Source: Escherichia coli (lineage in GTDB: Bacteria > Pseudomonadota > Gammaproteobacteria > Enterobacterales > Enterobacteriaceae). From it: a stretch of DNA of 64,000 bases. The position numbers were made by a program. The DNA is taken from NCBI RefSeq assembly GCF_017348835.2, contig NZ_CP071375.1; one strand, given 5' to 3'. This document shows, piece by piece, positions 40,501-43,500 of this stretch (within the stretch, counting starts at the first letter, position 1; every line of letters starts with the position of its first letter).

Positions 40501-43500
40501 GAATTAGCCGATGCGAGAGCTGAAAATGAAACTCTGCGTGCTGATGTTGCCGCTGGTCGTAAGCGCCTGCGCATCAACGCCAACTGTCCAGGCTCCTTGC
40601 GTAAAGCCCCCATCACCTCCGGCGTGGATAATGCAACCGGTCCCCGACTGGCAGAAGCCGCTGAACGGGATTATTTCATCCTCAGAGAACGGCTGATGGC
40701 AATGCAGAAGCAACTGGAAGGAGCACAGGAATATATCCGTACCCAGTGTATACCGTGATGTTTTGTTATGAAGGTGTTACTGGTAACGTTAAGGTAATTT
40801 AACAAAGAGTCAGTTCCGGACTTTATAGTGTGCTCAGTTCATGGCCAAAAACGATTTCTGTGATAAATATTTTGAATATTATTTACAGGTAAATGGAGTG
40901 GGGCGCATGGATAGAAATATTACAATAGAGTATGAAGTATATGCCCGTATTGTATGGGCAGAGAAGGCAAAAACACGGTAATTCCGTGTGTTGCCATGAT
41001 ACCTGATTGGCAGAATAGTTGTTTGGTTTTGAGTATATAGTCAGCGTTTTTTGTTCAGTAATTGCCCCCTCAAAAAATAATAAAATAAGGTGATTATTTT
41101 TGTTTATTATTTAGTTTTTTTTGTGTGTTATTTTATTGTTTTTGCGTGGTTTGTTTTTTATTGTTATTTCATTAAGGGAAGGTAAATTCAGGATGGCAGT
41201 CTGTAGATAATCGGAGGTCACTTATGCTACATGATCACGTGGCAGAATGTCTGGAGAAAAAAGGACTGTACCGGAGAGCAGCTGAACGATGGGCAAAAGT
41301 GATGGTACAGCTAAGTGATGACCAGAAAAGAAAAGTGGCGGCACAGAAACGAGCAGAGTGTTTGCGTAAGGCGCGCCGGACTCCGGTTTCACCGGTGAAC
41401 CTGACCGAAATAAAACAAGCGGTCAACAGACTACATTCTGAGTTGGGAATGGGATTTGAAGAGCGGCGGGTATTCCGACGATATAAAGGGACAGGAGAAC
41501 AGAATACGTCCGGAAACGCGCGGTCAAAAAAATGCTAAAAAATATCTGAGAGAGTTATTGCCTGTTACCATAAGAAAAAGCGACTTTAGTGGTCGCTTTT
41601 TGTGTCATATATAAGTCGTTTAAGTAAACCTGTCTGAACAGGTGCTCTGGTCGTGTTTGTCTTTGTTGGGTACAAATTGAGAATATTTTTCATTAATTAA
41701 TCTTCTTCTGCAGGCTTCAATAACCCACGCTGAAAAATTACCTGAACCTTTCAGGTCAAGAGCGATGTTAATTTGTTCAATTATCTGGTTTGGAAATCGG
41801 ATGTTGCGGGTTGTTGTTCTGCGGGTTCTGTTCTTTGATGACATAATGTTGCCCCGTATTCAGTGTTGCTGATTTGTATTATCTGAAGTTGCTTTTACGC
41901 TAATTTGATGCAGATCAATTAATACGATACCTGCGTAATAATTGATTATTTCTCGTGGTTTGATGGCGTACACACATGTCGTGATAAACCTCATGTAGAT
42001 GATAATTATTATCATTTTCGTGGGTCCTTTCCGGCGATCCGACAGGTTACGGGGCGGCGACCTCGCGGGTTTTCGCTATTTATGAAAATTTTCCGGGATC
42101 CATGTCCGGTTTCTCTTCAAGTTAACTATATGAAAAATATAAAAACAGGTCTTCTGTGAACCGGACATGAACAAAAAACAGACATGTAAACCGGACATGA
42201 CCGGTTTTGTTGTGATTGTGAGGTGAGAGTTTTTGCGAGGTGAGGAGTGGCTACGCAGACTGAAGTTGCCAGGCATTTAAGTCTGACCGATCGCCAGCTT
42301 CGCAGATTGCAGAAATTGCCGGGTGCCCCGATATCGAATAAGCGAGGGCAACTGGATCTGGATGCCTGGCGCGATTTTTACATATCGTATCTGAGGAGAA
42401 GTAAAAACGATGTGCCTGATGGCGATAGCGAAGACGACTATGAGGAGAAATTGCTTATTGCCAGATGGGAACTGACAGCAGAACAGGCTGTTACACAGCA
42501 GTTAAAAAATGAGGTGTCAAAAGGAAAACTTATTGACACCGGGTTCTGTATTTTTGCCCTCAGTAAGCTGGCAATGGCGTTATCCAGTACGCTTGATTCC
42601 ATCCCTTTATCCATGCAGCGACAGTTTCCTGATTTAACACCGCGCCATCTTGACCATCTGAAAACCCTTATTGCTAAGGGGGCAAATCAGTGTGCGCGGG
42701 CAGGGGATAAATTACCGGATTTACTCGATGAATATATCAGAGCAACAACTGAATAATATGATGGCTGCCGTTTCGGTTGCGCTGCAGCCTCTGGTCAGGG
42801 TTGTACCAATGACGGCAGTTGAATGGGCTGATCAAAATTATTATCTGCCTAAAGAATCTTCATATGGTGAGGGAGAATGGAAAACGCTGCCATTCCAGAT
42901 CGCCATTATGAACTGTATGGGTAACGACCAGGTTCGCACGGTTAACCTGATTAAATCTGCCCGTGTTGGCTATACAAAGATGTTGCTGGGGGTGGTCGGG
43001 TATTTTATTGAGCATAAATCCCGAAACAGTCTGCTTTTTCAGCCCACGGATTCTGCCGCTGAAGATTTTATGAAGTCTCACGTGGAGGCGACGATTCGGA
43101 ACGTGCCATGCCTGAAAGACCTTTCCCCATGGCTGGGTCGTAAACATCGTGACAATACTCTCACGCTGAAACGCTTTTCATCGGGCGTCGGTTTCTGGTG
43201 CCTGGGCGGCGCTGCCGCCAAAAACTACCGTGAAAAATCCGTGGACGTGGTCTGCTATGACGAACTTTCCTCGTTCGAGCCGGATGTCGAAAAAGAGGGC
43301 TCGCCAACCCTGCTGGGGGATAAGCGTATTGAGGGGTCGGTGTGGCCAAAATCCATTCGCGGCTCGACGCCTAAAATCAAAGGCACCTGCCAGATCGAAA
43401 AAGCCGCTAACGAGTCGGCGCATTTTATGCGTTTTTATGTGCCCTGCCCGCACTGTGGGGAGGCGCAGTATCTGAAATTTGGCGATGAGTCCACGCCTTT

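What the first reader, a model, noticed from the sequence alone, without database searches (positions are those of the whole stretch)
42030..42200. Lambda-type cos site with three copies of a CCGGACATG motif
The sequence around 42052-42063 matches the lambda cohesive-end region almost base for base. Within 150 bp downstream the motif CCGGACATG occurs three times (42101-42110 inverted; 42161-42169 and 42191-42199 direct), plausibly the terminase small-subunit binding sites of cosB. Their sequence and spacing differ from lambda, suggesting a distinct packaging specificity despite a lambda-like cosN.
Basis: partly seen in the sequence, partly recalled or inferred. Interest (0 to 1): 0.35.

Follow-up and report, generated by a model that had tools for sequence, protein, structure and literature searches.

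The report
Lambda-type cos with different cosB
This is the DNA-packaging start site of a lambda-like prophage of pathogenic E. coli: its cutting site is identical to lambda's, but the neighbouring docking repeats, and the docking domain of the small terminase that should read them, are of a different, widespread type that I found described nowhere.

Summary
Window 42052-42063 is lambda's cohesive end, and cos bp 1-45 match lambda 45/45. Identity then falls to 4/25. CCGGACATG occurs three times in the 64 kb, all within 99 bp. The unit is really a 13-mer, CATGTCCGGTT(T/C)N. The copies lie at cos bp 50-62, 106-118 (inverted) and 136-148. The first two correspond to R3 and R2 of lambda and phage 21. 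An IHF-like site lies at bp 72-84, where phage 21 has I1.

The terS gene starts at bp 196. Its C-terminal part is Nu1-like, but its first ~58 residues are a divergent winged helix-turn-helix that no Pfam or PDB sequence profile matches.

In 78 E. coli relatives R3 never varies, while the spacers vary freely. In diverged relatives from other genera, all copies within a phage change together (ATGTCCGG or ATTTCCGG). That change tracks residue 20 of the TerS recognition helix: Arg goes with G, other residues with T, with one exception. Lambda (Asn, T) and phage 21 (Arg, G) fit the same rule.

This is a lambda-architecture cosB of a different sequence class, probably a distinct packaging specificity. 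About 21% of complete E. coli genomes carry it. The O157 Sakai Sp4/Sp14 cos was noted in 2009, without these sites. No binding or DNA-end data exist.

The parts
42022..42028 (+). cosQ heptamer GGGTCCT (packaging termination signal in lambda)
   Evidence: Sequence. The same heptamer is labelled cosQ for Sakai Sp4/Sp14 and lambda in Fig S8 of PMC2669165. It is conserved in all enteric relatives.
42046..42067 (.). cosN nicking site; the 12-nt cohesive-end sequence GGGCGGCGACCT is 42052-42063 (cos bp 1 = 42052)
   Evidence: Identical to lambda and phage 21. The nick positions are inferred by homology and were not mapped.
42064..42096 (.). cosN-proximal segment (cos bp 13-45), identical to lambda. 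It includes the TATGAAAATTTTCCG box that the 2009 figure labels IHF.
   Evidence: 45/45 identity over bp 1-45, followed by an abrupt drop to 4/25. Box label.
42101..42113 (+). R3-equivalent TerS site CATGTCCGGTTTC (cos bp 50-62).
   Evidence: Same place as R3 of lambda and phage 21 (bp 50-65). The 13-mer is identical in 78/78 close relatives: 0/13 variable columns against 65/98 in the spacers, Fisher p = 3e-6. It sits at bp 50 or 51 in all 10 diverged relatives that have the full site layout.
42123..42135 (-). I1-equivalent IHF-like site. Bottom strand TTTCATATAGTTA against the consensus WATCAANNNNTTR, 2 mismatches (cos bp 72-84).
   Evidence: Phage 21 I1 is annotated at bp 74-86. Nine of ten relatives with the full layout have a match at bp 72-84 (73-85 in Klebsiella), four of them perfect. 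The spacer bp 63-105 is 74% A+T against 49% for the window.
42157..42169 (-). R2-equivalent site, inverted relative to R3 (top strand TGAACCGGACATG, cos bp 106-118)
   Evidence: Phage 21 R2 is at bp 107-122, inverted. The site is present at bp 106-118 (107 in Klebsiella) in every relative with the full layout, and always carries the same sequence variant as that phage's R3. It is identical in 72/78 close relatives.
42187..42207 (.). R1-equivalent site. TAAACCGGACATG (bp 136-148, same orientation as R2) overlaps an opposite-strand copy, CATGACCGGTT (42196-42206). Together they form a 20-bp near-palindrome.
   Evidence: The CCGGACATG core is kept in 76/78 close relatives. The site is absent in relatives whose terS starts at bp 145-159, and it has the R3 orientation in L122. 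It therefore looks accessory.
42247..42756 (+). terS (GTG start, 169 aa). Residues 1-~58 form a divergent winged helix-turn-helix DNA-binding domain with its recognition helix at 15-22. Residues ~49-150 are Nu1-like.
   Evidence: Pfam PF07471 matches only residues 49-150, on profile positions 62-163 of 164. BLASTP to lambda Nu1 aligns only residues 73-164, at 46%. AlphaFold2 model of residues 1-58: mean pLDDT 83.7, helices 4-10, 15-22 and 38-54.
42728..44656 (+). terL, gpA-type large terminase (ATPase plus endonuclease)
   Evidence: PF05876 and PF20454. 66% identical to lambda gpA over 639 aa.

Best explanation
The region 42022-42207 is the cos site of a lambda-like prophage. It is the same cos and terS as in O157 Sakai Sp4/Sp14 and phage PhiR12.

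Proposed mechanism. The large terminase, 66% identical to lambda gpA, makes staggered nicks at a cosN identical to lambda's and leaves 12-nt 5' cohesive ends. It is held in place by the small terminase bound to cosB. Here cosB keeps the lambda and phage 21 layout:
- R3 at bp 50-62;
- an IHF bending site at bp 72-84;
- an inverted R2 at bp 106-118;
- an accessory R1 at bp 136-156.

The R sequence, however, is CATGTCCGGTT(T/C), not lambda's CGTTTCC(T/G)TTCT. It is read by a TerS whose N-terminal winged helix-turn-helix has diverged beyond sequence recognition from those of lambda, 21, phi80, N15 and Gifsy-1. An IHF bend would bring R3 and R2 face to face for a TerS dimer, as in the published lambda model. 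Arg20 of the recognition helix probably reads the G of ATGTCC.

Expected consequence. This would be a packaging specificity distinct from lambda's on a shared cosN.

Shown directly: the sequence anatomy, the conservation, the co-variation and the gene content. Inferred: binding, bending, nick positions and specificity.
For: - Cut site. cosQ and cos bp 1-45 are identical to lambda, with a sharp breakpoint at bp 45/46.
- Gene context. The site lies directly upstream of terS, terL, gpW and lambda-type portal genes. TerL is 66% identical to gpA.
- Layout. The repeats and the IHF-like site lie at the R3, I1 and R2 positions annotated for phage 21.
- Chance. An 11-mer triplet appeared in 0 of 200 shuffles.
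- Constraint among close relatives. R3 is invariant in 78/78 E. coli relatives, while 65/98 spacer columns vary (p = 3e-6). R2 and R1 are slightly looser, as lambda genetics would predict with R3 critical.
- Concerted change. In Klebsiella, Salmonella, Citrobacter, Enterobacter and Leclercia relatives (TerS 60-81% identical) the spacers cannot be aligned, yet R3 stays at bp 50 or 51 and R2 at bp 106 or 107. All copies in a phage carry the same variant, ATGTCCGG or A(T/C)TTCCGG.
- Protein-DNA co-variation. Across 217 loci (49 distinct combinations of domain and site), every TerS with Arg20 has TGTC sites. These include three separate distant lineages with only a site next to terS: L127, L174 and L100. 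TerS with Asp, Asn, Ser, Thr or Lys at position 20 has TTCC sites, with one exception (L096, Lys20, GGCC). Four predictions made from residue 20 before looking all held, though one of them (P0038) is the same lineage as Leclercia L091, already seen. At lineage level Fisher p = 0.015.
- The same rule fits lambda (Asn21, CGTTTCC) and phage 21 (Arg21, CGTGTCGG), using the hhalign register of window residue n = lambda residue n+1.
- Fold. The modelled domain has a helix-turn-helix-wing-helix topology. Its highest TM-scores are to RppC (0.76) and to a chain of the RppC-lambda TerS complex (0.72, rmsd 2.4 A), then to MerR-type domains.
- Function in nature. PhiR12 phages, deposited as complete phage genomes with E. 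coli K-12 MG1655 or E. coli C named as host, carry the same cosB and terS at 97.5% identity. Sakai Sp4, which has this cos, was found packaged.
Against: - There is no DNA-binding, footprinting or virion end-mapping result for this element or any close relative in what I could read.
- cosB lies within 200 bp of the codons for the TerS binding domain, so co-inheritance alone produces some of the co-variation. The independent Arg20 lineages and the concerted change of several copies per phage reduce this objection but do not remove it.
- Foldseek E-values are not significant for so small a domain (best 0.68), hhalign probability is only 22%, and the AlphaFold2 alignment had only 21 sequences.
- In this window the IHF-like site has 2 mismatches to the simple consensus.
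- R1 points the opposite way from lambda's R1.
- Published lambda/21 genetics assign the T/G base pair (bp 56) to TerS residue 24, not 21. My residue-to-base assignment may therefore be indirect.
- The prophage carries an IS element (28413-29300), so this particular copy may be unable to grow.
Confidence: 0.85

Rival explanations
1. It is a functional cos with TerS-binding repeats, but not a new specificity. The sites are close enough to phage 21's R sequences for the two systems to cross-recognise, so this would be a variant of the known phage 21 class.
For: Phage 21 R sites are C(A/G)TGTCGG(N)CCT, and R2 and R1 contain CATGTCGG. The window has CATGTCCGG, so CATGTC is shared, with 9/12 identity in the best shifted alignment. 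Both TerS proteins have Arg at the equivalent recognition-helix position. N15 terminase is known to package lambda DNA despite divergent recognition elements.
Against: The shared core lies 3 bp nearer cosN than in phage 21. [quoted passage not shown] The site has C where phage 21 has the G of bp 59, a base that discriminates lambda from 21. The two binding domains share no BLAST-detectable similarity. The recognition helices are RQLRRLQK here and RTIERWQS in phage 21.
Confidence: 0.1
2. The repeats are not terminase sites. They would instead be RNA or DNA hairpins (terminator-like elements ahead of the head genes), or operators for another regulator such as the adjacent PerC-family protein.
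For: The consensus scan reports terminator-like stem-loops at 42093-42109 and 42188-42207, 4 in the region against 1.1 expected. A PerC homologue is encoded 500 bp upstream.
Against: The hairpin partners are not what is conserved. Salmonella P0021 and P0022 have no CCGG upstream of R3, yet they keep the R3 13-mer at bp 50. The sites track TerS residue 20 even in phages from other genera, where no pairing with PerC was seen. A terminator between the late promoter and the head genes would work against the phage. The positions match R3 and R2 to within 0-3 bp.
Confidence: 0.03
3. The anatomy is right, but this copy is a relic. The prophage would be defective, so its cos is never used by its own terminase and matters only as a passive target for a co-resident prophage of the same type.
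For: An IS (rve-family transposase) lies inside the prophage at 28413-29300. Most lambdoid prophages of O157 Sakai carry defects, and Sp4, with a disrupted nu1, is thought to be packaged by Sp14's terminase through an identical cos.
Against: terS, terL, gpW and portal are intact ORFs with full-length family matches. The cos region is identical to the commonest variant among 81 loci. This rival concerns the fate of this copy, not what the element is.
Confidence: 0.25

Closest known systems
Bacteriophage lambda cos (cosQ-cosN-cosB with R3-I1-R2-R1; TerS gpNu1, TerL gpA)
   Same: The cosQ heptamer and cos bp 1-45 are identical. R3 starts at bp 50. An IHF-like site lies between R3 and an inverted R2. 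terS starts at about bp 190-196. TerL is 66% identical. The TerS C-terminal region is 46% identical.
   Different: The R sequence is CATGTCCGGTT, not CGTTTCC(T/G)TTCT. The core lies about 3 bp nearer cosN. R1 is inverted and about 12 bp closer, and forms a palindrome. The first ~70 residues of TerS show no BLAST or Pfam similarity.
Phage 21 cos (second documented lambda-like packaging specificity)
   Same: cosN is identical and the layout is the same, with R3 at 50-65, I1 at 74-86 and R2 at 107-122. The R core shares CATGTC. Arg occupies the equivalent recognition-helix position.
   Different: The core is CATGTCCGG against CATGTCGG(N)CC and is shifted by 3 bp. The binding domain is not detectably similar in sequence. 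R1 has a different orientation.
N15 and Monarch (one specificity with a single-site or a multi-site cosB; PMC4669245)
   Same: The same pairing recurs here. Enteric members have R3-I1-R2, with or without R1. Aeromonas phiARM81ld, Pseudomonas LPPA33, E. coli 705R4 and metagenomic relatives have only a TTCCGGTTCCGG element at about bp 55-68, next to terS. One natural variant (L019) has an exact 30-bp deletion that fuses R2 and R1. This echoes the unequal-crossover origin proposed for N15's cosB.
   Different: N15's R3 (GAGGTTGTTGTT) and its recognition helix are unrelated to those here.
Putative cos of E. coli O157 Sakai prophages Sp4 and Sp14 (Asadulghani et al. 2009, Fig S8)
   Same: This is the same element. 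The Nu1 sequence MATQTEVARHLSLTDRQLRRLQKLPGAPISNKRG... and the cos sequence up to ...TTTTCCGGGATCCATGT match the window.
   Different: That figure marks only cosQ, cosN and an IHF box and stops at the first bases of R3. It describes no cosB repeats, no second IHF site and no link to TerS specificity.
cos of phage-inducible chromosomal islands, read by Rpp-TerS heterodimers (PMC6739421, PMC9026076)
   Same: cosQ and cosN are lambda-like with an unrelated cosB. The proposed R3 lies at bp 48-65. The reader protein has a MerR-like winged helix-turn-helix, and RppC gives the best TM-score for the modelled domain.
   Different: The islands have no I1, R2 or R1 and no terminase of their own. Here the reader domain is part of a complete TerS, followed by terL and the head genes.

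Membership tests
Lambda-type cos site | cosN with the 12-nt cohesive-end sequence and conserved flanking bases | tested here: met
   GGGCGGCGACCT at 42052-42063. Cos bp 1-45 are identical to lambda at 45/45 positions.
Lambda-type cos site | cosQ heptamer upstream of cosN | tested here: met
   GGGTCCT at 42022-42028, as labelled for lambda and for Sp4/Sp14.
Lambda-type cos site | cosB with R3 at about bp 50-65, an IHF site, an inverted R2, and R1 | tested here: met
   R3 at bp 50-62, IHF-like site at 72-84, inverted R2 at 106-118, R1 at 136-148. R1's orientation differs from lambda's.
Lambda-type cos site | Position immediately upstream of Nu1/gpA-type terminase genes | tested here: met
   terS starts at bp 196. 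PF07471, PF05876, PF20454, gpW and Phage_portal_2 follow in lambda order.
Lambda-type cos site | Virion DNA with 12-nt 5' cohesive ends created at this site | not testable with these tools
   No read data or end mapping are available. The PhiR12 records are written in prophage order.
Lambda packaging specificity (cosB-lambda with gpNu1) | R sequences CGTTTCC(T/G)TTCT | tested here: not met
   Cos bp 46-70 share 4/25 positions with lambda. No lambda R sequence occurs in 42097-42246.
Lambda packaging specificity (cosB-lambda with gpNu1) | gpNu1-type recognition helix (RTIQNWQE) | tested here: not met
   The helix here is RQLRRLQK. The N-terminal 72 residues do not align by BLASTP.
Phage 21 packaging specificity | R sequences C(A/G)TGTCGG(N)CCT at bp 53-64, with gp1 recognition helix RTIERWQS | tested here: not met
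   The site is CATGTCCGGTTT at bp 50-61, which is 9/12 identical only after a 3-bp shift. The binding domains do not align. Cross-recognition was not tested.
N15 packaging specificity | R3 GAGGTTGTTGTT at bp 48-59, with N15 gp1 recognition helix | tested here: not met
Phage_Nu1 small terminase (PF07471) | Match to the family profile above the curated cut-off | tested here: met
   67.9 bits against a cut-off of 30. Only residues 49-150 match, on profile positions 62-163. The part of the profile that covers the binding domain is not matched.
Phage_Nu1 small terminase (PF07471) | N-terminal MerR-like winged helix-turn-helix DNA-binding domain | tested here: inconclusive
   The AlphaFold2 model (pLDDT 83.7) has the right topology. 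TM-scores are 0.72-0.76 to RppC and to the RppC-lambda TerS complex. However, Foldseek E-values are 0.7-2, hhalign probability is 22%, and the PDB and Pfam sequence searches found nothing significant.

The most novel reading that the evidence does not exclude
These repeats and the divergent TerS domain may define a fourth lambda-like packaging specificity that has not been characterised. It would be common in Enterobacteriaceae and dominant among the lambdoid prophages of enterohaemorrhagic E. coli. It would contain at least two sub-specificities (ATGTCC with Arg20, ATTTCC with Asp/Asn20). These appear to be set by a one-residue, one-base-pair rule that also fits the classic lambda versus phage 21 pair. 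If so, packaging specificity could be predicted from sequence and re-engineered. Co-resident prophages that share one cosN could also be sorted into groups that can or cannot package each other's DNA, including virulence genes.
Probability: 0.5. Interest if true: 0.6.

Novelty: new variant of a known kind. Interest (0 to 1): 0.45.

Why it matters
The Feiss laboratory's 2015 paper states that only three packaging specificities (lambda, 21 and N15) are documented among lambda-like phages, and remarks that more diversity would be expected. This element is a strong candidate for another. It is not rare: 1140 of 5426 complete E. coli genomes carry it, including O157:H7 and O145.

Strains of this kind carry several lambdoid prophages with the same cosN. 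Which small terminase reads which cosB therefore decides which defective prophages, and which effector or toxin genes, can be mobilised by a neighbour. That was already suspected for Sakai Sp4 and Sp14.

The co-variation between residue 20 and one base gives a concrete, cheap experiment on how winged-helix small terminases read DNA.

Tried and rejected
- PDB sequence-profile search with the TerS family alignment found nothing meaningful (best E = 0.69, unrelated proteins).
- Pfam on the isolated N-terminal domain gave only a sub-threshold sigma-70 region 3 hit.
- Foldseek with the full-length model was dominated by the long helices. I repeated it with the domain alone.
- Full-text search for CCGGACATG or CATGTCCGG returned mainly p53 response-element papers and nothing on phage packaging.
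- Searches for PhiR12, for cosB together with O157/Stx/EHEC terms, and for phiARM81ld, LPPA33 and 705R4 found no description of these sites.
- Three Feiss-laboratory Virology papers (the N15 cosB bioinformatics, the lambda/21 contacts, and the natural history of cosN) are not held. A prior description there cannot be excluded.
- The genome-contig scan returned only 10 loci.
- I first assumed that K-12 DLP12 (nohD) would show a phage 21-type cosB. It is lambda-type.
- The weak copy at 42176-42186 is not a site, because it is not conserved in PhiR12 or other variants.
- The terminator-like hairpins are not the conserved feature.
- I looked for contigs that end at cosN as indirect evidence of a physical end. 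None was convincing for this cos type.
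Full report
**1. The observation**

The sequence at 42052-42063 is GGGCGGCGACCT, lambda's cohesive end. Taking 42052 as cos bp 1, bp 1-45 match lambda at 45 of 45 positions. Bp 46-70 match at only 4 of 25. The cosQ heptamer GGGTCCT lies at 42022-42028.

CCGGACATG occurs exactly three times in the 64-kb window: 42101-42109 on the minus strand, and 42161-42169 and 42191-42199 on the plus strand.

AACCGGACATG is exact in all three copies. A fourth copy with one mismatch, on the opposite strand, overlaps the third at 42196-42206 and gives a 20-bp near-palindrome.

The clustering is not chance. In 200 dinucleotide shuffles of the window, a 9-mer triplet within 110 bp appeared twice and an 11-mer triplet never appeared.

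**2. Surroundings**

- Upstream lie a lysozyme gene (39422-39955), an Rz gene (40234-40758), a PerC-family gene (41224-41538) and a DUF3950 gene (41620-41844, minus strand).
- Downstream lie terS (42247-42756), terL (42728-44656), gpW and a lambda-type portal gene.
- TerL is 66% identical to lambda gpA along its whole length.
- TerS matches Pfam Phage_Nu1 only over residues 49-150, on profile positions 62-163 of 164.
- BLASTP to lambda Nu1 and to phage 21 gp1 aligns only from about residue 64-73 onward.

The cut site and the motor are therefore lambda-like. The DNA next to the cut site, and the protein domain expected to read it, have both been replaced.

**3. Anatomy compared with known cos sites**

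Phage 21's GenBank record annotates R3 at bp 50-65, the IHF site I1 at 74-86, an inverted R2 at 107-122 and R1 at 150-166. Lambda's R3 is also at bp 50-65, with TerS contacts at bp 55-63. The window has:

- CATGTCCGGTTTC at bp 50-62;
- an IHF-like match on the bottom strand at bp 72-84 (TTTCATATAGTTA, 2 mismatches to WATCAANNNNTTR, the same number as lambda's I1 under this simple consensus);
- the inverted copy at bp 106-118;
- a further copy at bp 136-148.

The R3-R2 spacer is 74% A+T against 49% for the window. R1 does differ. It is closer to cosN, it points the same way as R2, and it is embedded in a palindrome.

**4. Distribution**

- Among 50,697 phage records, only the five PhiR12 phages contain this cosB and terS, at 97.5% identity. 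They are deposited as complete phage genomes with E. coli K-12 MG1655 or E. coli C named as host.
- Lambda-like phages match only the window segment up to 42096.
- Among 5,426 complete E. coli genomes, 1,140 contain at least 80% of 42030-42760. They include O157:H7 strains and O145 RM9872, the latter at 100% identity.
- Supplementary Figure S8 of Asadulghani et al. 2009 shows the cos and Nu1 of Sakai prophages Sp4 and Sp14. Both equal the window's. The figure marks cosQ, cosN and one IHF box and ends at GGGATCCATGT, which is the start of R3.
- The authors inferred that Sp14's terminase packages Sp4 through the identical cos.

The cos as such was therefore noticed before. I found no description of its cosB sites.

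**5. Constraint among close relatives**

I examined 78 IMG/VR loci whose TerS is 99% identical to the window's.

- The R3 13-mer is identical in all 78.
- R2 is identical in 72.
- The CCGGACATG core of R1 is kept in 76.
- Across 42 distinct sequences of the region, 0 of 13 R3 columns vary against 65 of 98 spacer columns (Fisher p = 3e-6).

The order R3 > R2 ≈ R1 is what lambda genetics would predict, because R3 is the critical site there. One natural variant (L019) has an exact 30-bp deletion that fuses R2 and R1.

**6. Diverged relatives**

TerS homologues 60-81% identical to the window's occur in Klebsiella, Salmonella, Citrobacter, Enterobacter and Leclercia, and in other E. coli. I recovered their upstream DNA.

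The spacers cannot be aligned, and even the cohesive-end sequence differs in some. Yet a 13-mer sits at bp 50 (51 in Klebsiella) and its inverted copy at bp 106 (107 in Klebsiella) in every one. Nine of the ten have an IHF-consensus match at bp 72-84 (73-85 in Klebsiella), and four of these are perfect.

The site comes in two forms, ATGTCCGGTT and A(T/C)TTCCGGTT. Within a phage all copies carry the same form. Klebsiella, for example, has ATTTCCGG, ATTTCCGG and ACTTCCGG.

More distant homologues (30-45% identical) occur in Pseudomonas LPPA33, Aeromonas phiARM81ld, E. coli phage 705R4 and metagenomic contigs. They have no I1 or R2. They carry a tandem TTCCGGTTCCGG element at about bp 55-68, directly before terS. 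This pairing of a single-site and a multi-site cosB mirrors N15 and Monarch.

**7. Co-variation with the protein**

The form of the site tracks residue 20, which lies inside the predicted recognition helix (residues 15-22).

- Across 217 loci, which give 49 distinct combinations of domain and site, every Arg20 protein has TGTC sites.
- Proteins with Asp, Asn, Ser, Thr or Lys at position 20 have TTCC, with one exception: L096, with Lys20 and GGCC.
- I made four predictions from residue 20 before looking at the DNA (P0014, P0038, P0027, P0101). All four held, though P0038 is the same lineage as Leclercia L091, whose DNA I had already seen.
- Arg20 arose separately in at least three distant lineages whose nearest relatives are not Arg20. 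L127 has TGTCCGTGTCCGG, L174 has GTGTCGTGTC, and L100 has ATGTCCGC on the opposite strand.
- At lineage level the association gives Fisher p = 0.015.
- With the hhalign register (window residue n = lambda residue n+1), the same rule describes the classic pair: lambda has Asn21 and CGTTTCC, and phage 21 has Arg21 and CGTGTCGG.

There are two cautions. First, cosB and the codons for this domain lie within 200 bp of each other, so linkage contributes to the association. Second, published genetics link the T/G base pair of lambda and phage 21 to residue 24, not 21.

**8. The reading domain**

AlphaFold2 on residues 1-58 gives mean pLDDT 83.7, using a 21-sequence alignment. The model has helices at 4-10, 15-22 and 38-54, with an extended wing between the second and third.

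The highest TM-scores in the PDB are to RppC (0.76), to a chain of the RppC-lambda TerS(1-98) complex (0.72, rmsd 2.4 A), and to MerR, RacA and BldC-type domains. RppC and lambda TerS are described as sharing the MerR-like winged helix-turn-helix fold.

Foldseek E-values are not significant for so small a domain. hhalign probability is 22%. The Pfam search on the isolated domain and the PDB search with the TerS family profile found nothing significant. The fold assignment is therefore likely but not proven.

**9. Mechanism proposed**

TerS dimers bind R3 and R2 through their winged-helix domains. IHF bends the A+T-rich spacer so that the two sites face each other. The C-terminal, Nu1-like part of TerS holds TerL over cosN for the two staggered nicks. 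R1 adds affinity.

This is the published lambda model applied to a different site-and-reader pair. The anatomy, the conservation and the co-variation are shown. Binding, bending, nicking and specificity are inferred.

**10. Rivals**

- Cross-recognition with phage 21 is the most serious rival, because CATGTC is shared. The 3-bp shift, the C at the position equivalent to bp 59, and the unrelated domain argue against it. Only a helper test can settle it.
- Terminator-like hairpins overlap R3 and R1. Their pairing partners are not conserved, whereas the 13-mers are.
- This copy may sit in a defective prophage, since an IS lies at 28413-29300. That would not change what the element is.

**11. Verdict**

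This is a real, non-random cos site of lambda type. Its cosB and its TerS DNA-binding domain belong to a class distinct from lambda, 21 and N15, and that class is widespread in enteric bacteria. It is a new variant of a known kind, and the cos itself was noted in 2009.

Interest is moderate. It would rise if the predicted fourth specificity and the residue-to-base rule were confirmed by experiment.

Noticed in passing
window 41224-41538 (+): A PerC-family transcriptional activator gene (PF06069, E = 4e-44) lies about 500 bp upstream of cosN, between the lysis genes and cos. This is the kind of gene known as pch in EHEC prophages. A cargo gene at the extreme right end of the packaged genome would sit next to the cos module and could move with it.
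   Followed up: partly
window 23972-23994 and 24139-24245: These are the only other 9-mer triplets in the window: AAGCCCCTT three times at 11-bp spacing, and AAGCCGATTC three times. Both lie inside a 406-aa ORF with no Pfam match (23421-24641), directly upstream of a DnaC/IstB-like ATPase gene (24648-25334). They look like origin iterons inside a replication-initiator gene.
   Followed up: partly
L019 (= L195), cos bp 110-140: A natural variant has an exact 30-bp deletion that fuses R2 and R1 into one site. This is an unequal crossover between the direct repeats, the kind of event proposed in the literature for the origin of N15's single-site cosB.
   Followed up: partly
L103 (E. coli, P0013), L111 (Enterobacter kobei), L105/L107/L115 (Salmonella): Relatives with the same cosB family have different 12-nt cohesive-end sequences, for example GGACGGCAGACG, GGGGCGCTAACC and GGGCGACGCGCT. 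The cosN and cosB modules therefore vary independently.
   Followed up: no
lambda cos bp 37-49 (L004) and window 42088-42096: Lambda's own sequence between cosN and R3 reads ATTTTCCGGTTTA. It contains the TTTCCGGTT core used as the TerS site by the Asp/Asn20 branch of this family, about 13 bp nearer cosN. This may be coincidence or common ancestry.
   Followed up: no
window 42097-42100: A Dam site (GATC) abuts R3 in GGGATCCATG. It is kept in several relatives (E. coli P0013, Salmonella P0021, P0022 and P0027, and P0014) but is absent in Klebsiella, Citrobacter, Enterobacter and Leclercia.
   Followed up: no
L100 (Endozoicomonas MAG), about 300-120 bp upstream of the TerS homologue: The upstream sequence encodes a second, lambda Nu1-like winged-helix N-terminus (MLVNQKQLAEILGNTTRHIRRMTDEGMPIHGRKGKE...) directly before the TerS of the family studied here. 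Two TerS-like reader domains therefore lie in tandem.
   Followed up: no
window 36229-38079 (+) and 28413-29300 (+): A 616-aa protein with DUF1737, SASA esterase and DUF6645 domains lies between the Q region and the lysis genes. An IS transposase (rve) is inserted in the early region of the prophage.
   Followed up: partly
L122/L123 (IMG/VR, TerS with Asn20): This relative has three sites with R1 (CCATTTCCGGTTGG) in the same orientation as R3, as in lambda. In the window R1 has R2's orientation. R1's orientation is therefore not fixed within the family.
   Followed up: partly
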